Assembly (NCBI GenBank): GCA_048937405.1 | Contig: JBHLNF010000014.1 | Span: forward strand, 18,424-82,423 | Direction of reading: 5' to 3' | Source: Promethearchaeota archaeon | Lineage (GTDB): Archaea > Asgardarchaeota > Lokiarchaeia > Sigyniarchaeales > SOKP01 | Length of the DNA stretch: 64,000 nucleotides | Shown: piece by piece, positions 2,501-35,163 of the stretch | How the letters are laid out: each line of letters opens with the position of its first letter | Numbering within the stretch: the first letter of the stretch is position 1 | Notes under the pieces: model-generated | Told to the model about the DNA's origin: nothing | Seen by the model: the letters and a program-made list of their open reading frames with translations, nothing else | The model's database searches: none | Made by a program: the position numbers and the translations under genes

Positions 2501-2727
2501 ATAACCTAAAAAAATTTAATAGATAATATCTATTTCTCTAACATTTTAAGTTAGTATGGATTTTATAGGTGTTGAAAAATATTATTCCTTCTTTATTATA
2601 TGCTATATCTCATTTACTCTCCAATAATCCAAGTTATATTAAAAAAATTGATTTTTTTTAATAAAAAATGCTTTTATTTAATTAAAAGCATATCTATAAT
2701 AAGGAACTTTCATTATTGCACTTTATA

Positions 2728-4206
2728 ATGAAATCTGTCTTAATTGCAAATCGTGGAGAGATTGCAGTAAGAGTTATTCGGACCTGCCGATCAAAAGATA
2801 TTCAATCAATAGCAGTATTTTCCGAGTCAGATAAAGATTCTCTTCATGTAAAAATGGCTGATGAGGCTTATTCATTAGGGAATGAATCGATTCAGAGCAC
2901 ATATTTGAATATTCCTAAATTAATTGAAATAATTGAAAGGTCAAAAGTAGATGCTGTCCATCCTGGTTATGGTTTTTTAAGTGAAAATGCCGATTTTGCT
3001 CGAGAAGTCATTAATCTTGGTAGAGATTTTATTGGACCAAATCCAGATACCATTGAATTCTTAGGAAATAAAATAAAAGCAAAAAAACGTGCTAAAAAAA
3101 TTGGTTTACCCGTTTTGGAAGGTTCTGAAGAATTTGTTGACAATTTAGACGAAGCCAAATCAGTTGCAGATGAAATAGGATATCCTGTAATAATTAAGGC
3201 AGCCTATGGTGGTGGTGGTAGAGGTATGGAAATTGTTGAATCACATGAAGATATGGAGATTGCATTTGAAAGCTGCCAATCAATGGGATTAAATTTTTTT
3301 GGACGGAAAGAAGTATTTATTGAAAAAACTATTACAGAACCGCGCCACGTAGAGATTCAATTTATGGGAGATAATTTTGGAAATGTTGTTCATTTAGGAG
3401 ATCGGGAGTGCACAATCCAAAGATCATATCAAAAACTAATTGAGGAAGCACCCTCATTTTTAACGAGAGATGAGGTTATTGAATTAGGAGAAAAAACATG
3501 TTTATTAGCTTCTGACTTAAATTATTCAAATATAGGAACCGCAGAATTTCTCTGGAAAGATGGTAATATTTATTTTAATGAAGTTAATCCAAGGATCCAA
3601 GTAGAGCATGTAGTTACAGAAATGGTAACTGGAATAGATATTATTGAAGAACAGATAAATATTGCTTCAAATAAACCATTAAATTTCACTCAGGAAGATA
3701 TTTCAATATATGGTCATGCAATAGAATATAGGATTAATGCTGAAGATCCACATAATTCATTTTTCCCTCAACATGGAAAAATATCCAATTTGATAATTCC
3801 AGGAGGTCCAAAAGTGCGTTTTGATAGCTACTTATATCCAAATTATATTGTTCCTTATGATTTTGATCCATTAATAGGAAAATTAGTCGTTTGGGGACGT
3901 AATCGTAAAAGAGCTATTAGTAGTTCTAAGCATGCTCTAAAAGAATTGGTTATCTCAGGAATTAAAACAAACTTGGAAATGCATAAAGTAATAGTGGAAA
4001 CAAGTGAGTTTAAAAAAGGGGATTTATCAACGGATTTCCTAAATAAAATAAATATTGTTTATAACTTGAAAGACTTAGAGAGAAAGAAATTAGCCGCCGT
4101 TTTTCAATTATTCAACACGTTTGATTTTGCACCCCAACCTGAAAAGGATAATGATAAAAACTCACATAAATGGCGAGATATTGCTAAAATTGAGCAAATG
4201 GGTTAA
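2728..4206 (+). CDS. accC: Biotin carboxylase subunit of acetyl/propionyl-CoA carboxylase
   Basis: VLIANRGEIA, HPGYGFLSEN, GGGGRGM, RECTIQR, EVNPRIQVEH motifs; ATG at 2728 preferred over TTG at 2716. Confidence 0.95.
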   Translation: MKSVLIANRGEIAVRVIRTCRSKDIQSIAVFSESDKDSLHVKMADEAYSLGNESIQSTYLNIPKLIEIIERSKVDAVHPGYGFLSENADFAREVINLGRDFIGPNPDTIEFLGNKIKAKKRAKKIGLPVLEGSEEFVDNLDEAKSVADEIGYPVIIKAAYGGGGRGMEIVESHEDMEIAFESCQSMGLNFFGRKEVFIEKTITEPRHVEIQFMGDNFGNVVHLGDRECTIQRSYQKLIEEAPSFLTRDEVIELGEKTCLLASDLNYSNIGTAEFLWKDGNIYFNEVNPRIQVEHVVTEMVTGIDIIEEQINIASNKPLNFTQEDISIYGHAIEYRINAEDPHNSFFPQHGKISNLIIPGGPKVRFDSYLYPNYIVPYDFDPLIGKLVVWGRNRKRAISSSKHALKELVISGIKTNLEMHKVIVETSEFKKGDLSTDFLNKINIVYNLKDLERKKLAAVFQLFNTFDFAPQPEKDNDKNSHKWRDIAKIEQMG

Positions 4207-4246: not shown

Positions 4247-4762
4247 TTATAAAACAGAAGTACTTTCTGTTATTTTTACTGAAGGTATATTCTCAATTTT
4301 AACTAGCTGTTGATCTTGACCTACTATATCCTCAACTTCTACGAAGATTTGGGTTATCTTGCCGTTAATTGGAGATAATATCCGATTTTTCATTTTCATT
4401 GCCTCTAAGATCATAATTAATTGATCTTTTTCAACAATTTCCTGTTCTTTAATAAGAATTTGCAGAATCTTCCCGGGAATAGGTGCTTTTATAATCACAT
4501 CTTTAGTCTCCTGATTTTGATTGTTATTTTCTACTGGCTTTAAGTAGGGTTTAATTTCAATATCGATTTCTTCTCCTTCTAAATATAAAGTTCCATTTAT
4601 ATATTCCAAATTGAATTGACAATCTGCAAATGACACTCGAAACAAATTTTCAGTTTCCTGAACTACTACAGGTGTATAAATGTGATCATCAACTTTTATT
4701 TTCCCATCATCCAAGGGTTTAACAATGTAAGTTCTACCCCGGAATTTTACTTTTTTTTTCAT
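4247..4762 (-). CDS. accB: Biotin carboxyl carrier protein
   Basis: APIPGKI and EAMKM biotinylation motif. Confidence 0.92.
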   Translation of the reverse strand: MKKKVKFRGRTYIVKPLDDGKIKVDDHIYTPVVVQETENLFRVSFADCQFNLEYINGTLYLEGEEIDIEIKPYLKPVENNNQNQETKDVIIKAPIPGKILQILIKEQEIVEKDQLIMILEAMKMKNRILSPINGKITQIFVEVEDIVGQDQQLVKIENIPSVKITESTSVL

Positions 4763-4792: not shown

Positions 4793-5578
4793 TTATAATA
4801 GATGAGTACTAAAAAATTCAAGAAGCTTTTCACGCATCAATTGAAAATGATTTTTATTTGTAAAATTATGATTAGCACCATCAATAATGTCAATACTCTT
4901 GATATTAGAATTAATTTTATTGAAAAGCTGATGAAATCCAAATTCTGGGAATAAAACATCCTTATTCCCCGCTATTAAGTAGAATGGTTTTACTAATTTA
5001 TCCGCTAATCTGTCTGGATTATATTGTCTTGTTTGTCCTGCATACATATTCTTAATATCTCCTTCTGGAAATCGCATTTCCTTATTACGTGTTAAAGCTT
5101 TTATAAAAAATTTAAATAATGGATTTTTAGGGACAATTTCAGTATCGAAAACAGGAGATCTTATAGCAAGACATTGGACTCTTCTATCTCTTACAGCATG
5201 ACAAAAAGCCATTGCACCCCCAAAACTCTCTCCCAATAATCCAATTTTGAGAGGATTAATTTTAGGATGGTAAATTAAGAGGTCTATTACTCGTTCAATA
5301 TTAGCGTGAGCATCATGATATGTAAAAATACCCGTACTATTTCTAACACCTTGATGATCATAAGAAAAAAAAGCAATATTTCTATCAATGAAATGATGTG
5401 CAAATCTTATTTCGTTTTCTTCTGGAGACTTTCCTGGCATACCACTGATATTTATTATTATTGGATAAGATTGATTTTCATCCGATTTAGGATTACTACC
5501 ATCAGGTAAATAAAGAATACCATGTAGAATTTCGGAACGGATTTCTATTTCTTTTATTTCTTTTATCATTCTTATCAC
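4793..5578 (-). CDS. Alpha/beta-hydrolase, candidate trans-acting thioesterase or release enzyme
   Basis: GESFGG nucleophile elbow, AGNKD Asp, GANH His; GTG start overlaps the PKS TGA stop (GTGA at 5575-5578). Confidence 0.8.
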   Translation of the reverse strand: MIRMIKEIKEIEIRSEILHGILYLPDGSNPKSDENQSYPIIINISGMPGKSPEENEIRFAHHFIDRNIAFFSYDHQGVRNSTGIFTYHDAHANIERVIDLLIYHPKINPLKIGLLGESFGGAMAFCHAVRDRRVQCLAIRSPVFDTEIVPKNPLFKFFIKALTRNKEMRFPEGDIKNMYAGQTRQYNPDRLADKLVKPFYLIAGNKDVLFPEFGFHQLFNKINSNIKSIDIIDGANHNFTNKNHFQLMREKLLEFFSTHLL

Positions 5579-8500
5579 GTGATTATATTATTTTCTTTAA
5601 AATTTTTAATCTCACAATAAGATAATACATATTTCTCATTGAATTCAACACTTAATTGTAGATCTTCAAGTATTTCATTGAATTTGGATAAGCTTTTTGT
5701 GAGTTTCACTTTAAAATTCTGATGAATTTTATTATATTTTAATTCAATGTCTCTGAAATTTATATGAGTACCTTCACCAATTGCTTTTGAGAATGCTTCT
5801 TTTGCAGTCCAATATATCGTTCCTAATTGATCATCTTCTGAAATATCTTCTCTTTCCGATTCAGTAAATGCTTCCATATAGAAAGATTGAGATCGAGATT
5901 CAATTTTCTCTAAATCAATTCCAACTAAATTTTTACTAATAATTGCAATAGAAAATTCATTTGAATGAGTAATGGAAAGAAAAAGTGGAATTATTTGGTT
6001 ATTCTTTAATGAATAGTAATATGGTCTCCCTTTTTCATCTTTCTGTATTTCAATGTCCAGATAGGAAATATCAATTGGTGAATTTTTAAAATAAGATTCT
6101 TTTGCTGCTATGATTCCAGAAAAATATTCAATCTTTCTTTTTTGATTCCTAAATCGCACAGAATTGTCAAACTCTCTTTCAGTAAGGTATTTGTCTAAAA
6201 ATTGAGGATAATTTTGAAATGATTTTTTTATCATTTCGATAGGAATTATTTTTACCTCATGTTTTTGAGTTTTTTCTTTAAGTTTACAATATTCTAACAG
6301 TGTAGATAAATAATTGGAAAGATTGTTGGAGAGATTAACTGAAATCTGTGTATGAATAATTTCTAAATTTTCTATTATTAAAATAACTTCTTGGTTTTCA
6401 CTCAAAATTACTGAATTAAAATAGGAACGTTCTTCATCAATTTTCAGAAATTCTGTTACAATATATTTTGGTTTTTGGTTTGATATTATTTTCATGGAAG
6501 AAATTTTAGAAGGAAGGGAGAGATGATTATTAATGATAAAATCAAACAGTGCAGCTGTTTGGAATACACTCTCAATTGCTAATGGATTAAGCTGAAACAT
6601 ATCTCCCTCAATGTTATTAGTAAGAGGTTCTTTTGGTAGATCAATCTTTGAGATAATTTGCTCTTTTTCTAATTGAATTATTTCTTTTAGTACTTGGAAT
6701 TTCTTACCGTGAAAAAATAGTTCATAAATCTGAGTTTTATCAAGCAGAGGTATTATTGGTTCTAAAATCAGTTCTTTTTTCCAATTCATCTCAATTAATG
6801 ATTTATCGAATAGAGCACTGAAATGTTCTTTTATAAGAGGTTTTCCTTTCAAAATAGGAGGAAAAGTCTTCGATAAAAATTTTATTTCGTTATCAGATTT
6901 ATTAAAGATTACTTCTACACTAATTGATTTATCTATTGGAATCTTCAAGGGCGTATGAAAACTAATATTTGAAATTGAATTCATAGGTTTATCAAAGATT
7001 CGATTATAGAATTCTGCAAATGTTTCTAAAACCATTACACCTGGAAAAACGGGTTTTTGCTGAATTTGATGGTCAAGAAGATAAGTATCGAATTTAGAAT
7101 TTATGGTATTCAAACCAATAATGTGGTCAGCCTGATAATTTATTTTTTCTATCATAGGATATTCTAATTTATTGACTACTTCCCCGACATCAAGCATTTC
7201 CTCAAAGAATCCTAAGTTTCCAGCAATGATATATTCACCTGTAAAATTGTTTAATACTAATTTAGAAAAAATCTTAGTACCCGTTTTAGAGGGAATAGGA
7301 GTAACCCCCGCTTGAGTAAGGACTTGAAGTGTAGAACCTCTAGTAGCCATTCCAATTTCGCCCCATGCTGTCCAATCAAAAGTTAAAAATTGAATGTTTT
7401 GTTGGTTGAATTTCCAAGCCAATCTTGACAGATAAGCATTCGCAAATGCATAATCTATCTGACCTTGATTACCATAACGTCCAGCAACTGAAGCAAAAGC
7501 AATAAAATATTTTACATCTTGTAGTTTTATATACTTAATTATGTTTGAAAATCCTCCGACTTTAACACTAACAATTTTGTGAGCCATATTTAAATTTTTC
7601 TTCAAGAAGCTTTTTGATTCTTCAATACCAGCACCATGAACTATAATTGTTATTGGTTTTTTTGTTTGTTTTTTAATTTTTTGAAAGATAATCTTCATTT
7701 CTTCTTCATTTGTTATATCAACCGCATAATATTGAACTGAAAGCCCTTTATTTTTTAAATTTTCGACATTTCGAAGTGTATCCAACTTATCGAGAAATTT
7801 CTTCCATTCTTTATTGATTATGACAGGAGTTACTTTATCTTGTTTAGATTTCAATGATTTAACGAATTCTTGTTTTTTCTCATCTAACATATCCGATGAA
7901 TAGTTAAGATATTCATAAAATGAATCATCAAAAGGAGCTAAACCTAAAAGTATTAATTCTGGCTTAATATGATTTGTTAATTCATCAATACACGCAAATG
8001 TGATTCCTTGCGCTCCTCCTGTAACCAATAATACATCATCTTTGGTTATTGTTACTTGGTTTAGTTCGGGAAGATCTTCTATCTTCTTTCTCAGCAAAGT
8101 ATAACGAGCATTATCTTTATATGCAATTTCCTCAAGTTTATCCCATCCCAAGAATTCTTGTGTAATTTGTTTAATATTCATTGAAGCTATAATCTTAATA
8201 GGAATCTGAAACTCTCGATTAATAGTTTTTATAAACGCACCGATACTAGATGAGAGAGGATTAGCACCTTGTTCCCAACCAAACATATTCTCAGGAGAAA
8301 GGACCAAAATTTTCTCAATAATTGATATATTTAAAGATTTAAAAATAAGAAATAGAATGTCAAAGATGTCTAAACTATCATCAATAGAATACTGGCCATT
8401 ATCTGGGGATATTAATATAATTATCTTGAAATCCTTATTAGATATGACATCAGGAACTTTATTTCTAAACTCCTCAACGCTTTTTTTATCTCCATTAGCA

Positions 8501-11500
8501 TTGTAAATATGGATGTCCATCCCAAAATTTTTGAAATCTTCAATTAGATTTTTATGATTGGATAGTCCTGAATTAATATTAATTACTAATGTTTTAATAT
8601 TATCAAATTTCGGCGTTTTCTCCGAAGAAACTAATTTAAAAACTCGAGTTGGGACTACTTGTGAAATACCAATTGAATCAACTTCTTCTGACTTCTCTTT
8701 AGATTTAGAGATACCACTTGAGGTTGTTAAGGATATTTCAGGCACTTTTAATTCTTCACCTATAAATCTCATTATAAATTCAATAATTGCATTAGGTGTG
8801 CGTATATCAGCCAAATTAACCTCAATGTTATCCTCTAGATTGTAATGATTCCTTAATTCTCCAAATATTTCCGCTTGTTTTACAGTATCAATCCCAAGAT
8901 CTTCTTCTAAATCATATTCATCATCAATATCTTGAATATCATAACCTGTTTTGTCCGCAATAATCCTCTTTACTAAATTTTTGACCTGATTTATCTCATC
9001 ATTTATATTTTGTTGTGATTGTATCATATCTGGTATTACACTTACATCTGGTTCTATGTTTTGATCAATTACATACTCTTGTATTTTTTGAATTATATTA
9101 TTGATAGTTCCTAATCCTACTAAATTTATTTCTGTGTCCTGCGAGATATTCAATTGATTTCGTAATTCTCCAAAAATTTCAGCTTGCTTAACTGTATCAA
9201 TACCTAAATCTTCTTCTAGATCAAAATCAACATCAATATCTTCAATATCATATCCAGTTTTTTCAGAAATGATTTGAATTAATTTAGTTTCAAGAGTTTT
9301 ACTCTCAATACGGGTAATTTCTTTGCTGGATGATATATCTAATCCCAAATATTCGTTTAGCATCAAAACAATAGAATTGATGGTACGATAATCTGCTATA
9401 TTAAATGTATCATCAACTTCAATTCCCCATTTTTCTCTAATTTCCCCAAATATTTCTGCTTGTTTTACAGTATCAATTCCTAGATCTTCTTCTAAATCAT
9501 AAGTTTCTTCAATGTCTGACGGATCATAACCTGTTTTTTGTGCGATAATATGCTTAATTTCATCTAAGATATTACTTGAGTAAATCGAGGTTGCCTTTTG
9601 GGAAAATTCTGTTGCTTTTGGTGATATTAAAGTTGTTTTTCTAGTAGAGATAGGTTCTACATTCATTTTTAATATTCGACCATCCATGAATGTCAGTTTC
9701 CTACTTCCCCCTACACTTTGAAGCCATTTATCATAATTTGGATTTATAAACCGATTTTCAAATGAGAATAAGCGAAATAATACAAATGCTAATTGAGAAC
9801 CAAATCCAGCAGCAAAACGTAATGCATATTTCTTTCTTTCTCTTAACCCTTTTGAAAAATTAAATTTTATAAAATCGGGATCAATTTTTTCAATATTTGC
9901 AATTGGAGGAATTTTTCCTTTTTCCATTGATTTAATAGCCACTGCTTCCTCGATACCAGCTCCCATTGCATGACCAGTATATCCTTTAGTGTTAATTATA
10001 AGCATATCATAAGCATTTTCACCAAATGCTTTTTCCAATGCTAATAATTCCGATTCAGCACTTCCACCTCGAGCAGGGGAATAAGTCTCATGACTTACAA
10101 ACATACCTTCTTTTGCTAAAACACTTCTGTTAATGCCGTGAATCTTTTCCATTTTTATTATAAAATTGTTGAATTTTTGAGAAATATCATCTTTATCTAA
10201 TCGACTACCATGATATGCACTATTACTAAAGAAAGATCCAAGAATTTCTACAATTGGTTTAACTCCCCGATTTTCAGCTTCAGATTGTTGTTCAAGAACA
10301 AATGCACTAGCCCCAGCACCTAAAATAATCCCATTTCTTCCTTTCCCGAATGGGAGTACTGCATCTTCCCAGTTAGATTGCGTTGTACCGGCACCATTTG
10401 CTATAAAACCTGCTCCAATCCATTGAAATAGATTTTTACTTGTTACATCATCAGCTGTAATTACAATAACTCGTTTACATCTATTATTTCGTATCCAATC
10501 TTCTGCTATACTAATCGCTTGGGGTGCAGTAGCGCAAGCAGCATTAGTAGCCGTATTGGGACCTTTTGCTTTAATTAATTGAGCAAATTGGGAATGACCC
10601 ATTGATAATACTCTAAATAAAAATGAACGATTAAATGTGTTATCCCCATCTTCAGGATTATTTAATTGATTCTGATCTTTATTAGAATGTAATAAGCATT
10701 CCTCAGCAAAATTATCATATCCTGGAAAAGCCGAAGCAAAAATAACTCCAGTATCATCCTGTAAAGACTCTGGTAAAGTCCAATCACCAAATAATGTCTT
10801 TCCTGTAGTTGTTTTAATAGTACTACGGATTAATGGAATTCCAGCATCTTTAAGTGCTTCATAGCCAGCACATATTGCTAATTGAAATGTAATATCCAAT
10901 GCATTAAGCATCTTAGGATCGAGTTGATAATCTTCTGTAGGATTAAATTTTCCTAATTCTCCTGCTAAATGGATTACTTTAGAAATATCATCTATAGGTA
11001 CAAATTTTGCATTACCATCAGCTGATTTTTCTAAACGGATTATATTCTTTTTTAATAAATCTAATTTATATTCTTCGCTTACCATTTCTATGAAATTTTT
11101 TCCATCTAAAATATCATCGATGTTCTTATCATCAAAAACATTACGATTTTTACCAGGAAGTCCAATACCTACTCCAGTGATTACTACTGGAGAAGACTTT
11201 TGCATTAATTCATATTTGCCAAACTGGTTTTCAAGAGAAGATTGATATTTTTTTAAATAATTATGAAATCCCTGAATTATTACTGAAGATAATAGTTCCT
11301 TTTGTTCCTCTAAAAACTCATTAAAAAATGGAAGTTGCTTTATCTGAAGTAATTCTTCATTCGAAATTAAATTATCATCCATTGTTGATGAAGTTGTGAC
11401 CTTTTTCACAATATCTTGTTTCTGATTTCTTACTGATGGAGATGAAATTTTAATTTCCTTAGCACTCTTCATTGTTCTTGGCGACTTATACTTCTTAAAA

Positions 11501-23576: not shown

Positions 23577-26500
23577 TTGATTGAAATGGGGGAAAATCAA
23601 TCTGATAATACAGTAAATTTATTTAAAACTATTTATAATGATTCTCCAATTGGAATTGAGATCTATGATTTGAATGGAAAATTAATTGATGTAAATCAAT
23701 CATGCTTGGAATTATTTGGTGTATATAGTAAAGACGATATTAAAGGATTTAATCTCTTAGATGATCCAAATGTCCCCAAAAAGTATTTAACAAAATTAAA
23801 ACAAGGAGAATCAGTAAGATATGAAAGTATATTTGATTTTGATTTAGTAAAAAGTTATAATTTATACAAAACTGCAAAATCAGGTAAAATCTATCTCGAT
23901 GTTCTGATTACACCTTTGTTTCTTACAGAAGATAAGTCTATCAGTAATTATTTAGTTCAAGTTCGAGATATCTCAGCTCAAAAAATAGCGGAACAGAAAT
24001 TGATATTATTTAATGAGGAGTTAGAAAAGAAAATACAAGATAAAATTAAAGAATTAAAGAAATTGGAAGCAAATTGGCGTGTTTTGGTAGAGGAAGCCCC
24101 AGATATAATCTTAACAGTAGATCGTAGTGGATATATTTTATATATTAATAGAGATTTCCTTGTAAAAACAAGAGAGGATGTAATTGGAACAAATGTGCTG
24201 GACTATATAAATACTAAACATCATGAGATAGTCAAAAAATCAATAGAAAAAGTATTTCAAACTGGAGAACCTGGGTATTATGAGATTTGTAGCATTGAAC
24301 CTAACAATGATAAGGTATGGTATTCAACTCGTCTCGGAGCGATTAAAGAAGGTGAGGAAGTTAAATCAGTTATGGTATTGGCAAGAGAGATTACTGAAAA
24401 AAAAAAGGTAGAACAGAAATTAAGAGAATCTGAAGAAAAATTTAAAATTCTTACTGAACAATCCTTAATGGGTATTGGAATCCTCCAAGATGGATTGGTT
24501 AAATATGCCTCTAAAAAACTTGCTGATATCTATGGATTTTCAATTGAAGAGATATTGAATTTTGAACCTAACAGATTTTTAAGCTTAATTGATCCTGAGT
24601 TTCTGGAGCTTGTGAGAGCCCAATCAAGAAAGAAACAATTAGGAGATGAAGATGTCATCACTAATTATGAACATAAAATAATTAAAAAGACAGGAGAAAA
24701 AAGATGGGTAGAAAATTATTCAAAATCAATCAATTATAAAGGCAAACCGGCAGATCTAGTTATAAACTTAGATATTACTGAACGTAAGAAAGCCGAAAAT
24801 AAGTTACGAGAAAGTAAGCAATTACTACAAACAACTTTATATAATCTTCAGGATGCAATATTTATTTTAGATGATAAAATTCCTCCTAAAGTTATTGATT
24901 GTAACCCAGCTTCGAAAAAAATTTTTGGATATTTACAAAGTGAACTTATTGGCAGCACAACTGCACTCTTACATGTTGATGATAATTCTCTAAAAACATT
25001 CCAAACATTAGTTCTCCCTAAACTCCAAGAACATGGCAATATTCAAAATTTTGAATATAAAATGAAAAGGAAAGATGGAACTATATTTCCTACTGAACAT
25101 GCGATTAGTGAGTTCAGAAATGAAAAAGGTGAAAAGTTTGGATTGGTTAGTTTAGTAAGAGATATTACTACGCGCAAAAAATTTGAAGAAAAGATTCATT
25201 ATCAGGCAAAACTTGTTGATGAGGTATCTGATGCTATTATATCTACGGATTTAAATTTTAATATTATCACCTGGAATAAAGCAGCAGAATCAATATATGG
25301 ATGGAGTGAGAAAGAAGCAATTAGAAAAAATATTAGTGCTATTATACCAGCGACATATCCTTATAATAAAGAAAAAGATGTAATTAAAAAATTATTGGAA
25401 GAGGGTTTCTGGAAGGGAGAAGTTGTTCAATATAATAGAGAATGTTTACCATTAATTATTCTTTCTTCAGTTTCAATGATTAAAGATATAAAAGGAGATC
25501 CTACTGGTATCGTAGTTATTAATCATGATATTACAGAATATAAGATAGCAGAGGAAAAGATCAGAGAATCAGAAAAAAAGATATTGGATTTAATTGAATC
25601 TGTTCCGGTTGGGATTTCTATTACAACTCCAGAAGGAAATATTATTGAATGTAATTCAAATGCTGTTCGACTCTTTGGTTATAATTCAAAAGAAGAATTT
25701 ATGGATACTCTTGTTATTGAATTATACCATTCACCTAATGATAGGGATAATTTTCTTGAATTACATAAAAATGGAATGGTTAATAATCTTGAAATTCAGT
25801 TTAGACGAAAAAATGGCTCAAGCTTTTGGGGATCGCTTAATTCAATTGCACATAATATAGGAAATCAAACTTATTTTATTAATTCCTTTCAAGATATAAC
25901 AGAACGAAAAGAAGCTGAACTTAGAATTCAGCAGAGTGAAGAAAAATATCGTAGTTTATTTAATAATGCACCGTTCGCAATAGTTCTCTTCAATATTGAA
26001 GGATATATCTTAGATTGTAATGATGCAACCTTTAAGATTACGGGTTATCAAAAAGATGAATTGATTGGAAAGAATTTTAAAGAATTTGATTTTTATATTG
26101 ATATCCGAAATGCCGATATTGAAAAGCGTAAGGAAGAAATTAAACAAGGAAAGGTTCCAAAACCTAGAGAAATTCTTCTTAAAAATAAAGATCGAGTTGA
26201 ATTTTGGGCCCGTACTTACCTTGAATTCATATATTTGGGTACTGAAACCTATATTCAAGCTATTATACAAGATATATCAGATCAAAAAAGAGCTGAGCAG
26301 AAATTAAAGGATTCAGAAGAAAAATATCGAAACATATCAAATCAGTATAAAATGTTATTAGAATCTATAATGGATGGCGTTTACGCTTTAAATAGAGATT
26401 GGGAATATATTCTTGTTAATAAAAATGCTGAAAGTCTTATTAATATACCCATTAACAAATTATTAGGAAATAAAATATTCGATGTTTTTCCTGGTATTGA

Positions 26501-28550
26501 GAAAACAACTTTTTTTAAAGTTTATGATAATGTTATGAAAACTAGAAATTCTGAGCGTGTTATTGATTCTTTTATACTCCCAGATGGTAAACAAGGATAT
26601 TTTGAAGTAAATGTTTATCCCATAAAAGAGGGGATATTATGTATAGGAAGGAATGTCACTGAAGAGAAACAAATCGAGAAAAAGCTAAAACAATCTGAAG
26701 AGAGGTTAAAATACCTTGTTTCTTCAAGTCCCTCTGTAATTTACAGTTCTAAAACATCAGGTAATTATGGAACTACATTCATGAGTGATAATGTTGAAAA
26801 AATGTGGGGATATAGTTCTGATCTCTTTCTAAATGATTCAGATTTCTGGATTGAACATGTTCATCCAGAAGATAAAGAAAATGTATTTGATATTCTCTCA
26901 AAATTATTTGAAAAGGAACACATAGTTTTTCAATATCGATTCAAACTTAATGATGGAACTTATCATTGGATGCGGGATGAAATTATGTTAATTCGAGATG
27001 ATTCTGGTAATCCAGTAGAAACAATAGGATCAGTTATTGACATTGACGATAGGGTTAAAGCTGAGCAAAAGTTAATTAAGTCAGAAGAAAAATATCGCAC
27101 ATTGATTAATAATATTCCTGGGATGATTTATAGAGGAAATCCTGATTGGACTGTACAGTTTATCTCTAATAGTGAAATAATTTCAGGATATAGAGAGGAA
27201 GATTTTAATTCTCAAGAAATAAATTGGATCCATATTATTCATCCAAAAGACAGAGATGCTATAATTAAGGAAGGAAATCTTATGAATGAAAATCCAATAT
27301 CATTATCACAGGTTTATAGAATTATCACCAAAAATGGAGTTATTAAATGGGTAAATGATTATAAATCATCCTATTTTGATGAGAAAGGAAGTTTTTGTGG
27401 TGTTGATGGGGTTGTTTATGATATTACTGCTCGTAAAAAAGTAGAGCAGGAATTAAAGGAATCAGAAGAAAAATTCAGAACTATAGCTGAACAGTCTACA
27501 TTAGGAATATTTATTCAACAAGATGATGAGATAAAATTTGTTAATAAAGCATTTTCGGAAATTATAGAGTATCCAATGGAAGAGATTAATAGATGGAAAG
27601 CGAGAGATATATTAAAAGTTGTATATCAGGAAGATTTACAAAGAGTGAAAGAAAAAGGGCGATTACGAGAGGAAAATGACTATGATGAGATTATCAACTA
27701 TGAATGTAGAATATTAACAAAATCAGAAAAAGTTAAATGGGTTGAAATTATGTCAAAAGCAATAAGATATCTCGGGAAGTACGCTTTATTAATTTCAGTG
27801 ATAGATATAACAGCTAGAAAGAAAGTAGAAGAACAATTACTAGAGATAGGTAATTTAAAATCAGAGTTATTAAGTAGGACATCACACGAACTTAAAACAC
27901 CATTAGTCTCAATAAAAGGTTATACTGATTTATTATTGACTCAACATTATAGAATGCTAGATATTTATACTATCTCGGTTTTGAATGAAATAAAACAAGG
28001 TTGTCATCGTCTTGAGTCTTTAATACAGGATCTTTTAGAAACTTCAAAACTAGAGTCTGAAGAGATAAAATTAAATAAGGAAGAAGAAGATTTAGCCTTT
28101 TTAATTAGATTTTGTATTAGAGATTTAAGAGGTTTGTTAGAGGCCAGAAATCATGAATTGGTTTTAGATATTCAAAACAATATGTATACACTTATGGAGA
28201 AAGAGAGAATCTATGAAGTGATCATGAATTTATTAAGTAATTCGATAAAATATACTCCTCCAAATGGGCAGATTCTAATCAAATCTGAAATAAAAGAGGA
28301 TAAGTATTTGATATCAATAAAAGATAATGGTATTGGTTTAACTGAAAATGAGAAAATAAAAGTCTTTAAAAAATTTGGAAAAATCGAACGCTATGGTAAA
28401 GGAATGGATGTTGTATCAGAGGGTTCAGGATTAGGTCTATATATCTCAAAAAGAATAATAGATCTTCACGGTGGAGAAATTTGGGTTGATTCAGAAGGGA
28501 GAAATAAAGGATCTACTTTTTTCTTTTCTCTGCCAATAATAAAAAAATAA
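23577..28550 (+). CDS. Cytoplasmic sensor histidine kinase with about 11 PAS/PAC domains
   Basis: Repeated ESEEKF/YR...DITERK linkers, H-box SHELKTPL, N-box NLLSNSIKY, DNGIG, GSGLGL. Confidence 0.92.
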   Translation: MIEMGENQSDNTVNLFKTIYNDSPIGIEIYDLNGKLIDVNQSCLELFGVYSKDDIKGFNLLDDPNVPKKYLTKLKQGESVRYESIFDFDLVKSYNLYKTAKSGKIYLDVLITPLFLTEDKSISNYLVQVRDISAQKIAEQKLILFNEELEKKIQDKIKELKKLEANWRVLVEEAPDIILTVDRSGYILYINRDFLVKTREDVIGTNVLDYINTKHHEIVKKSIEKVFQTGEPGYYEICSIEPNNDKVWYSTRLGAIKEGEEVKSVMVLAREITEKKKVEQKLRESEEKFKILTEQSLMGIGILQDGLVKYASKKLADIYGFSIEEILNFEPNRFLSLIDPEFLELVRAQSRKKQLGDEDVITNYEHKIIKKTGEKRWVENYSKSINYKGKPADLVINLDITERKKAENKLRESKQLLQTTLYNLQDAIFILDDKIPPKVIDCNPASKKIFGYLQSELIGSTTALLHVDDNSLKTFQTLVLPKLQEHGNIQNFEYKMKRKDGTIFPTEHAISEFRNEKGEKFGLVSLVRDITTRKKFEEKIHYQAKLVDEVSDAIISTDLNFNIITWNKAAESIYGWSEKEAIRKNISAIIPATYPYNKEKDVIKKLLEEGFWKGEVVQYNRECLPLIILSSVSMIKDIKGDPTGIVVINHDITEYKIAEEKIRESEKKILDLIESVPVGISITTPEGNIIECNSNAVRLFGYNSKEEFMDTLVIELYHSPNDRDNFLELHKNGMVNNLEIQFRRKNGSSFWGSLNSIAHNIGNQTYFINSFQDITERKEAELRIQQSEEKYRSLFNNAPFAIVLFNIEGYILDCNDATFKITGYQKDELIGKNFKEFDFYIDIRNADIEKRKEEIKQGKVPKPREILLKNKDRVEFWARTYLEFIYLGTETYIQAIIQDISDQKRAEQKLKDSEEKYRNISNQYKMLLESIMDGVYALNRDWEYILVNKNAESLINIPINKLLGNKIFDVFPGIEKTTFFKVYDNVMKTRNSERVIDSFILPDGKQGYFEVNVYPIKEGILCIGRNVTEEKQIEKKLKQSEERLKYLVSSSPSVIYSSKTSGNYGTTFMSDNVEKMWGYSSDLFLNDSDFWIEHVHPEDKENVFDILSKLFEKEHIVFQYRFKLNDGTYHWMRDEIMLIRDDSGNPVETIGSVIDIDDRVKAEQKLIKSEEKYRTLINNIPGMIYRGNPDWTVQFISNSEIISGYREEDFNSQEINWIHIIHPKDRDAIIKEGNLMNENPISLSQVYRIITKNGVIKWVNDYKSSYFDEKGSFCGVDGVVYDITARKKVEQELKESEEKFRTIAEQSTLGIFIQQDDEIKFVNKAFSEIIEYPMEEINRWKARDILKVVYQEDLQRVKEKGRLREENDYDEIINYECRILTKSEKVKWVEIMSKAIRYLGKYALLISVIDITARKKVEEQLLEIGNLKSELLSRTSHELKTPLVSIKGYTDLLLTQHYRMLDIYTISVLNEIKQGCHRLESLIQDLLETSKLESEEIKLNKEEEDLAFLIRFCIRDLRGLLEARNHELVLDIQNNMYTLMEKERIYEVIMNLLSNSIKYTPPNGQILIKSEIKEDKYLISIKDNGIGLTENEKIKVFKKFGKIERYGKGMDVVSEGSGLGLYISKRIIDLHGGEIWVDSEGRNKGSTFFFSLPIIKK

Positions 28551-28730: not shown

Positions 28731-29924
28731 ATGGAATATGTTGATAAAAAAAAACTCCAAACTCTCTTTAAATGGTATATGCAAGAAGTGGGAGAAAGTT
28801 TAATCTCAGTTCTGGTTGTTGGACGCGATGGATTAATAATTGAAATTTTAACTCGAGAGCCAGAAAAAAATGATGAAAAGAAATTTATAGGTGCTTTCAG
28901 CTCTTTAGTCGAATTAATATTAAAAAAGTTGACTCAAGAATTTGATCTTGGAACTTTTGGCGCCGGAACATTTGATACAGATAAATACAGGTTTATCTTT
29001 TGTGAATCGGGGTCTGATTATATTTTAGTTTCTATCCTCAATCATGTTGCTTTAGTTGATGATATATTTCCATATACTTATTTAGCTGCTGAAAAGGTAG
29101 TAAGAATTATGGAGGGGGAGTTTCCAGTTAGTCCTGTGATTCCTAAAGTAAAGCGAAATACTGAACTTGAAAAGATTAAGCGAAAAATGGATTATTACCA
29201 AAATAAACCACACTCACCGGAATATATTTACAAACTTTCTCTGATTGGAGATGGTGGTGTGGGTAAAACTAGTATGGCTCAGAGATATGTTCACGGAATT
29301 TTTAAAGCAGATTATAAAGCTACTATTGGTACTTTCATTTCTAAAAAAGAATGCGAATTTAAAGAATTAGGGACTTCTGTTAGATTTATGATATGGGATC
29401 TAGCAGGACAAACTCAATTCGAACGGTTATGGTCAGACTATTTAACAGATTCTCGTGCGGGAATAATTGTATTTGACATTACAAATAGAGAATCTTTTGA
29501 GCATGTCAAGAAATGGTATAATACCATTTCAAAAGTCGCATTACCTAATATTGTTTTGATACTAGTAGGAAATAAGATAGATCTAAATACATCTAGAATT
29601 GTTTCAACTGAAGAAGGTATGAATTTAGCTAAAGATCTAGGAATACACTATATGGAGACATCAGCAAAAACGAATGAGAATATTGATGATGTTTTTGAGT
29701 GGACTGCTCTTCAAATCATCAATAGGAATATTGAAGAAGAAAAAGAATCATTTGTTGACAAACAATTTGAAGAAGGGGCGGAATTTATTATTTCAAGTCC
29801 TCAATTAAAAGTATTGAATCAATATTTTACAAAACAATTGGATTATTGCATCGGAAAAAGTGATACAGCAGAAACAATTAAATATTTAGATCTTTTAAAA
29901 GCAATAGGAAAAAAGAAATTATAG
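28731..29924 (+). CDS. Roadblock/LC7-like domain fused to a Rab-like small GTPase
   Basis: N-terminal VLVVGRDGLII roadblock-like region; G1 GDGGVGKTS, G2 YKATIG, G3 WDLAGQ, G4 GNKID, G5 ETSAK. Confidence 0.88.
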   Translation: MEYVDKKKLQTLFKWYMQEVGESLISVLVVGRDGLIIEILTREPEKNDEKKFIGAFSSLVELILKKLTQEFDLGTFGAGTFDTDKYRFIFCESGSDYILVSILNHVALVDDIFPYTYLAAEKVVRIMEGEFPVSPVIPKVKRNTELEKIKRKMDYYQNKPHSPEYIYKLSLIGDGGVGKTSMAQRYVHGIFKADYKATIGTFISKKECEFKELGTSVRFMIWDLAGQTQFERLWSDYLTDSRAGIIVFDITNRESFEHVKKWYNTISKVALPNIVLILVGNKIDLNTSRIVSTEEGMNLAKDLGIHYMETSAKTNENIDDVFEWTALQIINRNIEEEKESFVDKQFEEGAEFIISSPQLKVLNQYFTKQLDYCIGKSDTAETIKYLDLLKAIGKKKL

Positions 29925-33249: not shown

Positions 33250-35163
33250 ATGGATAACTTGGAAGATTCAAAAGAAAAAAAAAATGTAACAATAAAATCA
33301 CCAGAAAAATTTTTTTCTATTCTTAATTCTCTAAACGAACCTATGCATATTATTGATAGAAATTACAAGATCCAATTTTTAAATATAGCAATGACTCAAT
33401 GGCTTATCAAATTGGAAATTGATGTTGATATTATTGGGGAATCTCTCTTTAAAATGTTTGATTTCTTAGAATATGATGAAATTTATAAAGAATATGATAA
33501 TGTCTTCAACACGGGTGAAACTCTTATCACAAATGAAGTAATAAACCTCAATACTCACAGAATATTTACTGAGGTTCAAAAAATTCCAGTTAAAAGTAAT
33601 GAAAAAGTAGAACAAATTGTAACAATTATACGAGATATTACAGAACAAAAATTAGCAGAAGAAAAATTAAAAGAATCTGAAGAAAAATTCAGAACTATAG
33701 CAGAACAATCGTTTATGGGAATATTCATCATACAGGATGGTATTTTAAAATATTATAACAAGGAAGCAATTAGAATAAATAATTATTCAAGAGAAGAAAT
33801 ACAAAATTGGAAACCGTTTGAATTTCTAAAACTTATTCACCCAGATGATAGAGAATTTGTGATGGAACAAGTATTGAAGAAACAAGCTGGTGATCCTGAT
33901 GTTCAAACTCATCATCAATATAGAGTGTTAAAAAAAAACGGAGAAGCATATTGGGTTGATAATTTTTCAAAATCTATTAACTATGAAGGAAAACCAGCTG
34001 ATTTTGTGATGACGATTGACATTAGTGATAAAATAACATCAGAAGATAAAATAAAAGAATCCGAAGAAAATTTCAGAACTATTGCTGAACAAGCGTTTGT
34101 AGGGACGTTAATAGTTCAAAATGATAAAGTGGAATATGTGAATGATGCTTTGCTAAAGATTTTTGAATTTACTAAAAATGATGTGGAAAATTGGACCATA
34201 AATGATCTAATTAAATTAATTTATCCTGAAGATTTGGAAAATCTAAGAGAACATCGTAAAAGGATAAAAGCAGGTGAATCTGATATGAATTCCTTGTATT
34301 CCTATAGAGTATTTACTAAATATGGAAAGTTGAAATGGATTGACCAATTCTTAAAGCAAATAATTTATCGAGGAAAACCAGCAGAATTAATCAGTATCTT
34401 GGATATTACTGAAAAAAAGAAGGCTGAGCAAGAATTAATAAAACTCAACAATTTAAAGTCAGAAATTCTTAGAAGAACATCTCACGAGTTAAAAACACCC
34501 CTTGTTTCTATTAAGGGATTTTCTGATCTTTTATTGACGGTACATAGAGAAAAACTTAATGATTATGTTTTAGCTACTATTCATGAAATAAAACTTGGAT
34601 GTGAAAGATTAGAAAATCTTATACAAGATATATTGAAAAGCTCTGAATTAGAAAGTGGAACTGTCGAACTAAAGAAAAAGGAAGAAGATTTATCATTCTT
34701 GATAAAACTATGTATAAAAGAATTAGGTGGTTTAATTAGACTTAGAGATCATGAAATTATTTTGGAAATCCATGATAAATTAATATCTTGGTTTGAACCA
34801 GATCAAATTCATCTTGTTATTAGTAATTTACTTAGTAATGCTATAAAATATACGCCTCCAGGTGGAAAAATTATTATTAGATCAGCTAAAACACAGGATT
34901 ACATCATAATTTCGATAGAAGATAATGGAATTGGAATAAGTAACGACGAAAAGAAAAGATTATTTTCCCAATTCGGTAAAATCGAAAGATATGGTCAGGG
35001 ATTAGATATTATTGCAGAGGGTTCAGGATTAGGATTGTTTATCACCAAAAAAATTATTGAATTACATGGAGGTAAAATAAGGGTAAAATCCAAAGGAAGA
35101 AATAAAGGTTCAACCTTTTCATTTACAATTCCAAGAATATTTAAAAATAAAAAACCAGATTAA
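33250..35163 (+). CDS. Sensor histidine kinase with 3 PAS domains
   Basis: PAS repeats, SHELKTPL, NLLSNAIKY, DNGIG, GSGLGL. Confidence 0.92.
   Translation: MDNLEDSKEKKNVTIKSPEKFFSILNSLNEPMHIIDRNYKIQFLNIAMTQWLIKLEIDVDIIGESLFKMFDFLEYDEIYKEYDNVFNTGETLITNEVINLNTHRIFTEVQKIPVKSNEKVEQIVTIIRDITEQKLAEEKLKESEEKFRTIAEQSFMGIFIIQDGILKYYNKEAIRINNYSREEIQNWKPFEFLKLIHPDDREFVMEQVLKKQAGDPDVQTHHQYRVLKKNGEAYWVDNFSKSINYEGKPADFVMTIDISDKITSEDKIKESEENFRTIAEQAFVGTLIVQNDKVEYVNDALLKIFEFTKNDVENWTINDLIKLIYPEDLENLREHRKRIKAGESDMNSLYSYRVFTKYGKLKWIDQFLKQIIYRGKPAELISILDITEKKKAEQELIKLNNLKSEILRRTSHELKTPLVSIKGFSDLLLTVHREKLNDYVLATIHEIKLGCERLENLIQDILKSSELESGTVELKKKEEDLSFLIKLCIKELGGLIRLRDHEIILEIHDKLISWFEPDQIHLVISNLLSNAIKYTPPGGKIIIRSAKTQDYIIISIEDNGIGISNDEKKRLFSQFGKIERYGQGLDIIAEGSGLGLFITKKIIELHGGKIRVKSKGRNKGSTFSFTIPRIFKNKKPD

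What the first reader, a model, noticed from the sequence alone, without database searches (positions are those of the whole stretch)
8764..9570. All three ACP domains have threonine instead of the invariant phosphopantetheine-accepting serine
Seen: DLGIDTVKQAEI three times, with Thr codons at 9469-9471 (ACT), 9193-9195 (ACA) and 8884-8886 (ACT) amid synonymous divergence, so Thr looks selected rather than an error. No Ser-type ACP was found in the window. Established: ACPs are primed on the Ser of the LGxDS motif (PfaA LGIDS). Inference: the fused PPTase may modify Thr, giving an orthogonal carrier/PPTase pair, or the enzyme uses a non-standard tether.
Basis: partly seen in the sequence, partly recalled or inferred. 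Interest (0 to 1): 0.85.

Follow-up and report, generated by a model that had tools for sequence, protein, structure and literature searches.

The report
Threonine carrier domains in Asgard synthase
All three acyl-carrier domains of a giant fatty-acid/polyketide-type synthase in this Asgard archaeon have threonine where studied carrier proteins have the serine that holds the phosphopantetheine arm; this is the conserved norm of a large, uncharacterised bacterial and archaeal enzyme family, so a threonine-linked cofactor attachment is likely but unproven.

Summary
One 3,512-aa gene (window 5575-16113, minus strand) encodes ER-KS-AT-KS/CLF-3xACP-KR-DH-PPTase. Each ACP has DLGIDTVKQAEIF, and the Thr (ACT, ACA, ACT) aligns with the acceptor Ser of solved ACPs and starts helix II in a confident model.

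In this 100%-complete genome these are the only carrier domains. The fused Sfp-type domain is the only PPTase, and the two KS domains are the only ketosynthases. ACP3 contains no Ser or Cys.

Thr is not special to this window. In 119 relatives fetched through the KS/CLF domain alone, 340 of 355 carriers have Thr. In 148 modular PKSs, 721 of 739 have Ser and 3 have Thr. A few relatives have Ser in the same motif, nested among Thr-only relatives, which argues that Thr fills the acceptor role.

The operon (carboxyltransferase, synthase, hydrolase, BCCP) is syntenic in other Asgard genomes. A cultured actinomycete has the same set: synthase, ACC and PPTase.

Best reading (about 0.65): the fused PPTase puts 4'-phosphopantetheine on Thr. 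No modification has been shown, and I found no publication describing it.

Earlier agents in this scan found the same trait on other DNA, including other Asgard genomes.

The parts
5575..16113 (-). Megasynthase gene, 3,512 aa from the TTG at 16113. The database twin P0002 is 3,509 aa, which points to the ATG at 16104 as the real start. Domain order: ER-KS-AT-KS/CLF-ACP-ACP-ACP-KR-DH-PPTase.
   Evidence: ORF list; translation; Pfam; NCBIfam; P0002
14047..15093 (-). Enoyl-reductase domain of the NMO/FabK/PfaD type (residues 341-689). It is preceded at 15094-16113 by a weaker second NMO-like stretch.
   Evidence: PF03060 63.7 bits; TIGR03151 FabK-like, residues 341-689; residues 1-345 score 26.1 bits against NMO, below the cut-off
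12526..13938 (-). Ketosynthase 1 with its C-terminal extension (residues 726-1196)
   Evidence: PF00109, PF02801, PF16197; DAACASS Cys motif read
11557..12450 (-). Malonyl-type acyltransferase (residues 1222-1519) with GHSLGE motif
   Evidence: PF00698 156 bits; TIGR00128 FabD-like; motif read
9694..11196 (-). Second KS-like domain (residues 1640-2140), the 'CLF' of Type R clusters. Both catalytic His align with those of KS1.
   Evidence: Second PF00109 match; KS1/KS2 alignment
9331..9588 (-). ACP1 (residues 2176-2261). Acceptor-position Thr2215, codon ACT at 9469-9471.
   Evidence: AlphaFold model with pLDDT 89 in which Thr is the first residue of helix II; ACP fold, TM 0.75-0.81
9055..9312 (-). 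ACP2 (residues 2268-2353). Thr2307, codon ACA at 9193-9195.
8746..9003 (-). ACP3 (residues 2371-2456). Thr2410, codon ACT at 8884-8886. This core contains no Ser and no Cys.
7360..8031 (-). Ketoreductase (residues 2695-2918)
   Evidence: PF08659 99.6 bits
6358..7107 (-). PKS-type dehydratase (residues ~3003-3252)
   Evidence: PF21089; PF14765
5578..6306 (-). Fused Sfp-type 4'-phosphopantetheinyl transferase (residues 3270-3512), built from two AcpS-like halves. It is the only PPTase in the genome. K3338, P3364, H3383, D3400, E3402, K3438, E3439 and K3443 are invariant in 93 Thr-only relatives.
   Evidence: PF01648, two stretches; alignments to AcpS, Sfp and the human PPTase; conservation
16126..17697 (-). 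Acyl-CoA carboxyltransferase, immediately upstream in the same direction
   Evidence: PF01039 603 bits; synteny kept in 5 of 5 Asgard genomes
4793..5578 (-). Alpha/beta-hydrolase whose start overlaps the synthase stop. Inferred to be the chain-release thioesterase.
   Evidence: PF12146; synteny kept in 5 of 5 Asgard genomes
4247..4762 (-). Biotin carboxyl carrier protein
   Evidence: PF00364
2716..4206 (+). Biotin carboxylase, divergently placed. Together with the carboxyltransferase and BCCP it makes a complete acetyl-CoA carboxylase.
   Evidence: PF02786, PF00289, PF02785
18377..19135 (+). Biotin-protein ligase family gene next to the operon
   Evidence: PF03099

Best explanation
The gene encodes a self-contained, iterative, fully reducing fatty-acid/polyketide-type megasynthase of the PfaA-like 'Type R secondary lipid synthase' lineage. 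It is native to an Asgard archaeon. The operon's own acetyl-CoA carboxylase makes malonyl-CoA. The AT loads malonyl units onto three tandem carrier domains. KS, KS/CLF, KR, DH and ER extend and reduce the chain, and the adjacent alpha/beta-hydrolase releases it. The carrier domains are ordinary four-helix ACPs in every respect except the acceptor residue at the start of helix II, which is Thr instead of Ser. The most likely mechanism is that the C-terminal Sfp-type PPTase transfers 4'-phosphopantetheine from CoA to the Thr hydroxyl. That would give O-(4'-phosphopantetheinyl)-threonine, which then serves as the usual thiol arm. Shown: the anatomy, the position of Thr, its conservation and selection, the absence of any other carrier or PPTase in the genome, the intact PPTase catalytic residues, and natural Ser/Thr exchange at this site within the family. 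Inferred: that Thr is modified, that the fused PPTase does it, the function of the hydrolase, and the product. The product is probably a saturated or lightly modified long acyl chain rather than a PUFA, because the genome has no FabA-type dehydratase.
For: (1) Thr aligns with the acceptor Ser of solved ACPs. It is the first residue of helix II in a pLDDT-89 model whose best PDB matches are all ACPs.
(2) These are the only PP-binding domains, the only PPTase and the only KS domains in a 100%-complete genome. A functional synthase therefore has to use them.
(3) ACP3 has no Ser or Cys, and no column has Ser in all three ACPs. No alternative acceptor of the usual kind exists.
(4) Purifying selection: 24 of 24 acceptor codons are Thr in 7 Asgard genomes, using four different codons. 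dN is 0.11-0.22 against dS of 0.6 to above 2.
(5) Family-wide: 340 Thr and 15 Ser in 119 relatives chosen by the KS/CLF domain only, and 851 Thr and 19 Ser in 214 relatives overall. Modular PKSs have 721 Ser and 3 Thr.
(6) Ser-bearing relatives have the same motif (DLGIDS[IV]K.AEIFG). They are scattered, needing 6-7 changes, inside Thr-only clades of a KS/CLF tree. Ser and Thr therefore substitute for each other at this site.
(7) The PPTase residues matching the Mg-binding Asp and Glu, the catalytic Glu and the Lys of AcpS/Sfp are invariant in 93 Thr-only proteins.
(8) A dedicated PPTase travels with Thr-ACP synthases even in actinomycetes that have 4-5 PPTases. In Planobispora takensis the order is synthase, fused ACC, then a 251-aa PPTase that is 27% identical to the window's domain (E 2e-21).
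(9) The order carboxyltransferase-synthase-hydrolase is kept in 5 of 5 Asgard genomes from two families.
Against: No chemical evidence of any modification exists. All support is comparative. The one published test I could read goes the other way: E. coli ACP S36T is not phosphopantetheinylated and cannot replace acpP (PMC3340395). That experiment involved the AcpS-type enzyme and a different ACP. I found no PPTase residue that explains acceptance of Thr. The gene is patchy even within the genus (4 of 24 other species), so it is dispensable and its product is unknown. About half of the relatives in the counts were retrieved with a word index that favours the LGIDT motif. The KS/CLF-based set corrects for this but covers only the nearest 120 proteins.
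Confidence: 0.65

Rival explanations
1. The PPTase-like domain attaches a different group to Thr, or uses a different donor. Candidates are a dephospho-CoA-derived or nucleotide-containing arm, by analogy with the citrate-lyase and malonate-decarboxylase carriers. The tether would then not be plain 4'-phosphopantetheine.
For: The acceptor residue departs from the rule, so the chemistry might too. Nothing in the data fixes the identity of the transferred group. The first AcpS-like half of the domain has Lys where AcpS has the metal-binding Asp, as expected for a pseudo-dimer with a single active site.
Against: The domain matches PF01648 and TIGR00556 above their cut-offs and keeps the AcpS/Sfp catalytic residues. 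Relatives with Ser in the same motif have the same kind of fused domain. The enzymes that build the citrate-lyase-type prosthetic group belong to other families (established knowledge).
Confidence: 0.1
2. The Thr carrier domains are never primed. They serve as scaffolds or docking modules, and the catalytic domains act on CoA thioesters directly, as has been proposed for ACP-independent fatty-acid synthesis in archaea. The PPTase domain would be a relic or have another role.
For: Archaea in general lack ACP and AcpS: the PF01648 control search found no match in the archaeal control genomes. E. coli ACP S36T stays apo (PMC3340395).
Against: An unused acceptor site would not keep D-L-G-I-D-T-V-K invariant across bacteria and archaea. 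Nor would it revert specifically to Ser. The PPTase catalytic residues are invariant in 93 proteins. Tandem ACP number varies from 1 to 8, as in PUFA synthases, where ACP copy number is reported to set throughput (recalled, not checked here).
Confidence: 0.1
3. The arm sits on another residue of the ACP, and the motif Thr is only structural.
For: A second Thr, in the KTGY motif of helix I, is more than 90% conserved.
Against: ACP3 has no Ser or Cys at all. As I recall, without checking it here, canonical Ser-type PfaA ACPs also carry the KTGYP motif; the Ser-type family members aligned do (TGY). The motif Thr sits exactly at the helix-II N-terminus, where PPTases present the acceptor.
Confidence: 0.03
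4. Artefact: a sequencing or assembly error, or a non-standard genetic code, in which ACN would be read as Ser.
For: None found.
Against: The same residue occurs with four different codons in independent assemblies from many phyla. ACN codons are used 159 times in this gene at ordinary positions. The ORF is open for 3,512 codons under table 11.
Confidence: 0.01

Closest known systems
Tandem ACP domains of PfaA in bacterial PUFA synthases, primed by the PPTase PfaE (NCBIfam TIGR02813; review PMC4882568)
   Same: Best NCBIfam match of the whole protein (923 bits). Shared features are tandem ACPs, the order KS-AT-ACPn-KR-DH, a PfaD/FabK-like ER and a dedicated Sfp-type PPTase. The ACPs have the same general motif layout (TGY...DLGID-x-[IV]K..E).
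   Different: The score is below the curated cut-off of 1010.1. The acceptor is Thr, whereas PfaE transfers the arm to a serine (PMC4882568). ER, a second KS and the PPTase are fused into one polypeptide. No PfaB, PfaC or FabA-type dehydratase was found in the genome, so a PUFA product is unlikely.
'Type R' secondary lipid synthase gene cluster (Shulse & Allen 2011, PLoS One 6:e20146, PMC3098273): Koribacter, Solibacter, Elusimicrobium, Roseiflexus
   Same: [quoted passage not shown] A Roseiflexus protein is among the KS/CLF-domain relatives at 47% identity and has Thr ACPs.
   Different: The paper mentions neither threonine nor archaea (0 occurrences of each). In the window an ER is fused at the N-terminus and DH plus PPTase at the C-terminus. 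The product of Type R clusters is unknown.
E. coli AcpP with AcpS, and the S36T mutant
   Same: The same fold and the same position at the start of helix II.
   Different: The engineered Ser-to-Thr change leaves E. coli ACP unmodified and non-functional (PMC3340395). Here Thr is the conserved natural state and comes with a different (Sfp-type) PPTase.
Sfp-type 4'-phosphopantetheinyl transferases (B. subtilis Sfp, PDB 1QR0/4MRT; human AASDHPPT, 2CG5)
   Same: A two-lobed pseudo-dimer of AcpS-like halves. The G-x-D-x-E and W-x-x-K-E-A-x-x-K motifs are conserved.
   Different: Sequence similarity is weak (E about 4e-4 to Sfp). The domain is fused to its substrate protein. The presumed acceptor is Thr. 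All characterised members are described as modifying a conserved serine (e.g. PMC9769936 abstract).
PKS cluster reported in a Heimdallarchaeota MAG from Shark Bay mats (Chen et al. 2020, PMC7472256)
   Same: A PKS-type cluster in Asgard archaea whose KS domains are nearest to PUFA synthases.
   Different: That was an antiSMASH/NaPDoS-level report. In the passages on Asgard archaea that I read it says nothing of the carrier acceptor residue, the fused PPTase or the ACC operon.

Membership tests
Acyl/peptidyl carrier protein (Pfam PP-binding PF00550) | Profile match above the curated cut-off | tested here: met
   34.3, 30.4 and 32.2 bits against a cut-off of 20.8 for the three domains
Acyl/peptidyl carrier protein (Pfam PP-binding PF00550) | Four-helix ACP fold | tested here: met
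   Model pLDDT 89.2. Foldseek top 50 PDB hits are all ACPs, TM 0.63-0.81 (most 0.72-0.81), rmsd mostly 1.4-2.6 A
Acyl/peptidyl carrier protein (Pfam PP-binding PF00550) | Conserved Ser of the D-S-[LIV] motif at the N-terminus of helix II as phosphopantetheine acceptor | tested here: not met
   Thr at that aligned position in all three domains
Acyl/peptidyl carrier protein (Pfam PP-binding PF00550) | Covalent 4'-phosphopantetheine on the domain | not testable with these tools
   Needs mass spectrometry of the protein
PfaA, PUFA synthase subunit (NCBIfam TIGR02813) | Whole-protein score at or above the curated cut-off of 1010.1 bits | tested here: not met
   923 bits
PfaA, PUFA synthase subunit (NCBIfam TIGR02813) | Partner PfaC with FabA-type dehydratase domains in the genome | tested here: not met
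   No PF07977 match in the 100%-complete genome. The only KS domains are the two in this protein
PfaA, PUFA synthase subunit (NCBIfam TIGR02813) | Tandem ACP repeats between AT and KR | tested here: met
   Three ACPs at residues 2176-2456, lying after AT and KS/CLF and before KR
Type R secondary lipid synthase cluster (Shulse & Allen 2011) | KS-MAT-CLF-ACP(3-6)-KR in one protein | tested here: met
   The same order, with three ACPs plus extra ER, DH and PPTase domains
Type R secondary lipid synthase cluster (Shulse & Allen 2011) | Dedicated PPTase directly downstream | tested here: met
   Here it is fused to the C-terminus. It is a separate gene in Planobispora
Type R secondary lipid synthase cluster (Shulse & Allen 2011) | Phylogenetic grouping with the named Type R members | tested here: inconclusive
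   A Roseiflexus protein is a 47%-identical KS/CLF relative. I did not build a tree containing the paper's own reference sequences
Sfp-type PPTase (PF01648, TIGR00556) | Profile match above the cut-off, with two AcpS-like halves | tested here: met
   70.1 bits against 25, in two stretches. TIGR00556 59.7 bits against 45.35
Sfp-type PPTase (PF01648, TIGR00556) | Mg-binding Asp and Glu (G-x-D-x-E) and catalytic Glu/Lys (K-E-A-x-x-K) | tested here: met
   D3400, E3402, K3438, E3439 and K3443 are invariant in 93 relatives and align with the AcpS motifs
Sfp-type PPTase (PF01648, TIGR00556) | Transfers 4'-phosphopantetheine from CoA to a carrier-protein Ser | not testable with these tools
   Needs an enzyme assay. 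The only available acceptors in this genome have Thr

The most novel reading that the evidence does not exclude
O-(4'-phosphopantetheinyl)-threonine is a natural and widespread post-translational modification. It would be made by a dedicated branch of Sfp-type PPTases on a large family of PfaA-like synthases in bacteria and archaea. In this Asgard archaeon it would be the sole carrier-protein system and would support de novo, ACP-dependent acyl-chain synthesis by an archaeon.
Probability: 0.6. Interest if true: 0.85.

Novelty: new variant of a known kind. Interest (0 to 1): 0.78.

Why it matters
Reviews and database annotation rules treat the phosphopantetheine acceptor of carrier proteins as an invariant serine, and engineered Ser-to-Thr ACP is used as a dead control.

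If Thr is the working acceptor in this family, three things follow:
- It adds a new cofactor linkage to a textbook modification.
- Motif- and rule-based annotation will misjudge these domains.
- It gives a possible handle for orthogonal carrier/PPTase pairs in engineering.

The threonine linkage may also differ in stability, for example slower beta-elimination or resistance to ACP phosphodiesterase. That is speculation.

For archaeal biology, the window shows a native operon in an Asgard archaeon that is conserved among those relatives that carry it. It holds everything needed for ACP-dependent acyl-chain synthesis: an acetyl-CoA carboxylase, the synthase, the priming enzyme and a release hydrolase. 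This bears on whether relatives of the eukaryotic ancestor can make fatty acyl chains. Cultured actinomycetes with the same module make the question directly testable.

Tried and rejected
(1) Complex prediction of the PPTase domain with ACP1, CoA and Mg gave no verdict (score 0.51, one control 0.70). It counts neither for nor against.

(2) The single search of protein representatives, with KS-AT as query, returned only giant modular PKSs, because many KS-AT copies add up in the score. It was useless for sampling the family. I reused it as a Ser/Thr background control.

(3) I looked for PPTase residues that track Ser versus Thr acceptors. Three positions differ in the two all-Ser relatives (R3326K, G3362K, G3446R). 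Those two proteins are each other's nearest relatives. The mixed Ser/Thr proteins keep the Thr-type residues. AcpS has Gly at the 3446 position, and Sfp too from memory of its motif. No convincing determinant emerged.

(4) I tried to find a genome with a mixed Ser/Thr synthase and a single PPTase. G192 also has a stand-alone 134-aa PPTase and a 109-aa ACP on short contigs, with 6% contamination, so the case is not clean.

(5) Literature searches for LGIDT, threonine with phosphopantetheine, Ser-to-Thr carrier proteins, and Asgard with PKS/ACP/ketosynthase found no description of Thr-type carriers. The 2014 PPTase review is not held under the id I tried, which I gave from memory.

(7) Rejected readings: an alternative genetic code or sequencing error, an alternative Ser acceptor, and a recent foreign insertion (gene GC 30.8% against window 30.0%).
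Full report
**What is there**

The finding lies inside one very long minus-strand ORF, window 5575-16113 (3,512 codons from a TTG). An identical database protein is 3,509 aa (P0002), so the ATG at 16104 is probably the true start.

Pfam and NCBIfam give this domain order:
- an NMO/FabK/PfaD-type enoyl reductase
- a ketosynthase
- a malonyl-type acyltransferase
- a second KS-like domain
- three PP-binding (ACP) domains
- a ketoreductase
- a PKS-type dehydratase
- a C-terminal 4'-phosphopantetheinyl transferase made of two AcpS-like halves

The best whole-protein family match is PfaA of PUFA synthases (TIGR02813). It scores 923 bits, below the curated cut-off of 1010.1.

**Check of the observation**

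DLGIDTVKQAEIF occurs three times.

Each copy sits in a PP-binding domain that scores above the Pfam cut-off on its own. In HMMER alignments to solved carrier proteins (PigH, Thermotoga ACP, AcpM) the Thr lies opposite the Ser of the D-S motif.

An AlphaFold model of ACP1, built on a 61-sequence alignment, has pLDDT 89. Thr is the first residue of helix II. The 50 best PDB matches are all acyl carrier proteins, with TM 0.63-0.81, most of them 0.72-0.81.

Within the 13-residue motif, seven codons differ synonymously among the three copies and none differs non-synonymously. The three ACP cores share only 59-65% nucleotide identity.

**Is Thr selected?**

Five other Asgard genomes from the same genus and a neighbouring family carry an ortholog for which I read the ACP DNA, and a sixth gave a further usable locus.
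- All 24 acceptor codons in the seven genomes (the window's included) are Thr, using ACT, ACC, ACG and ACA.
- Orthologous ACPs show dN 0.11-0.22 against dS of 0.6 to above 2.
- Ser is a single A-to-T change away, and TCT and TCA are the commonest Ser codons in this gene.

Thr is therefore being kept, not merely tolerated.

**No alternative carrier or priming enzyme**

The genome is 4.47 Mb in 29 contigs and 100% complete.
- The three ACPs are the only PF00550 matches.
- The two halves of the fused domain are the only PF01648 matches.
- The two KS domains of this protein are the only PF00109 matches.
- There is no FabA-type dehydratase.
- The 86-residue core of ACP3 has no Ser and no Cys, and no alignment column has Ser in all three ACPs.

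If this synthase works at all, it works with these Thr domains and this PPTase.

**The trait belongs to a large family, not to this gene**

- A search with the ACP region found 3,083 related proteins. In the best 120, 596 of 600 carrier domains have Thr.
- That search uses a word index that favours shared pentapeptides, so I repeated it with the KS/CLF domain only (residues 1640-2140). In the 119 best proteins that have a carrier, 340 domains have Thr and 15 have Ser.
- As a background, 148 modular PKSs retrieved by KS-AT similarity have 721 Ser, 3 Thr and 15 other or gapped positions.

Hosts include Hodarchaeota, Promethearchaeota, Heimdallarchaeum, Thermoplasmatota, Myxococcota, Acidobacteriota, Gemmatimonadota, Chloroflexota, Spirochaetota and Actinomycetota. 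Cultured strains among them are Planobispora takensis NBRC 109077, Nonomuraea rosea JCM 17326 and an Amycolatopsis. Desulfoluna butyratoxydans has eight Thr ACPs in one protein.

**Natural Ser/Thr exchange**

A few relatives carry Ser in an otherwise identical motif. Two proteins, one named Heimdallarchaeota by its source and one unnamed, have five Ser ACPs each (DLGIDS[VI]K.AEIFG) and a fused PPTase. Others are mixed (STS, STTT, STTTTT, TTTTS, TTTTTS).

On a FastTree of the KS/CLF domain (213 rows), the nine Ser-bearing proteins need 6-7 changes of state. Those whose placement was printed (four of the nine) sit inside starred clades of Thr-only proteins, at up to 70% identity to them. The tree is unrooted and its method is quick, so direction is not proven. 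It does show that Ser and Thr replace each other at this one site in a constant context. That is what one expects if both act as the acceptor.

**The PPTase**

The domain aligns with AcpS over each half, and with Sfp and the human enzyme over its second half. Across 93 Thr-only relatives with a fused PPTase, K3338, P3364, H3383, D3400, E3402, K3438, E3439 and K3443 are invariant. These include the G-x-D-x-E metal site and the K-E-A-x-x-K catalytic motif of the superfamily.

I found no residue that convincingly tracks the Ser/Thr choice. A complex prediction gave no verdict.

**Operon and context**

On the same strand, a carboxyltransferase (16126-17697) precedes the synthase. An alpha/beta-hydrolase (4793-5578, overlapping the synthase stop) and a biotin carboxyl carrier protein (4247-4762) follow it. 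A biotin carboxylase is divergent (2716-4206), and a biotin ligase lies nearby.

The order carboxyltransferase-synthase-hydrolase is kept in 5 of 5 Asgard genomes from two families. The gene's GC content equals that of its surroundings (30.8% against 30.0%). Its neighbours are typical Asgard genes: a Ras-family GTPase, LRR proteins and PAS histidine kinases.

The gene is patchy. I found it in 4 of 24 other species of the genus and 3 of 11 in the next family. A PPTase is present in 41 of 151 sampled genomes of the phylum.

In Planobispora the same functional set recurs: synthase (CLF-ACP-KR-DH), a fused 1,826-aa acetyl-CoA carboxylase, and a 251-aa PPTase that is 27% identical to the window's domain. 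In two further actinomycetes with 4-5 PPTases, one lies 7-14 kb downstream of the Thr ACPs on the same contig number.

**Comparison with what is known**

The architecture matches the 'Type R' secondary lipid synthase cluster of Shulse and Allen (KS-MAT-CLF-ACP(3-6)-KR plus a PPTase, with an ACC gene in Koribacter). That paper mentions neither threonine nor archaea. A Roseiflexus relative in my set has Thr ACPs.

PUFA-synthase reviews and PPTase papers describe transfer to a conserved serine (PMC4882568; PMC9769936). E. coli ACP S36T is used as an unmodifiable control (PMC3340395). A PKS cluster in a Heimdallarchaeota MAG was reported in 2020; the passages I read say nothing of the carriers (PMC7472256). 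Eight literature searches turned up no description of Thr-type carriers.

**Verdict**

The most likely mechanism (about 0.65) is phosphopantetheinylation of Thr by the fused Sfp-type PPTase. That would feed an iterative, fully reducing synthase which draws malonyl-CoA from its own carboxylase and releases product through the adjacent hydrolase. The product is unknown but is probably not a PUFA.

The rivals are a different prosthetic group, unprimed scaffold domains, another acceptor residue, and an artefact. They are less likely, for the reasons given under each.

Earlier follow-ups in this scan reached the same reading on other genomes, including other Asgard archaea. New here:
- the KS/CLF-based count, which does not depend on the ACP motif
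- the modular-PKS background
- the scattered Ser members on the tree
- the Ser-free ACP3
- the conserved ACC-synthase-hydrolase operon
- the matching module in a cultured actinomycete

Noticed in passing
window 15094-16113 (-), residues 1-340 of the synthase: The region ahead of the ER domain is itself weakly NMO-like (26.1 bits, just under the 28-bit cut-off). The protein may therefore start with two tandem TIM-barrel reductase-like domains.
   Followed up: partly
window 16104-16113 (-): The ORF list starts the gene at TTG 16113. The identical database protein is three residues shorter, which puts the start at ATG 16104. Residue numbers in this report follow the TTG start.
   Followed up: partly
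window 9694-11196 (-), residues 1640-2140: The second KS-like domain, called CLF in Type R clusters, keeps both catalytic His in alignment with KS1. It also has a Cys in an AACATA motif, so it may be a working ketosynthase rather than a Cys-less chain-length factor.
   Followed up: partly
P0331, P0354 (all-Ser); P0287, P0291, P0317, P0037, P0075, P0076, P0121 (mixed): Family members whose ACPs are all Ser, or mix Ser and Thr in one polypeptide, some with a fused PPTase. In three Thermoplasmatota-like proteins (P0037 and P0075 so named by their sources, P0076 unnamed) the first ACP is Ser and the rest are Thr.
   Followed up: partly
Asgard genomes of families f9, f24 and f18, e.g. G157:C16:10313-10630, G114:C1:1148053-1148370: Many Asgard genomes have a small stand-alone AcpS-like PPTase ORF (120-240 aa) instead of a fused one. 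I did not look at what carrier they serve.
   Followed up: no
L092:5245-10725 (+), Planobispora takensis: A single 1,826-aa eukaryote-style fused acetyl-CoA carboxylase (BC-BCCP-ACC_central-CT) sits between the Thr-ACP synthase and its PPTase.
   Followed up: partly
window 28731-29924 (+): A 397-aa protein with a Ras/Roc/Arf-type small GTPase domain, a typical Asgard eukaryote-like gene. It is flanked by very large multi-PAS histidine kinases (23577-28550, 33250-35163, 36463-38457).
   Followed up: no
window 19237-19719 (+): A 160-aa SET-domain protein lies next to the biotin ligase gene.
   Followed up: no
L018, Heimdallarchaeum aukensis CP084166.1, 495224-498129: Two PF01648 matches with identical scores lie 2.7 kb apart, one inside a 2,729-aa ORF and one in a 208-aa ORF. 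This suggests a duplicated PPTase segment or a split gene in that cluster.
   Followed up: no
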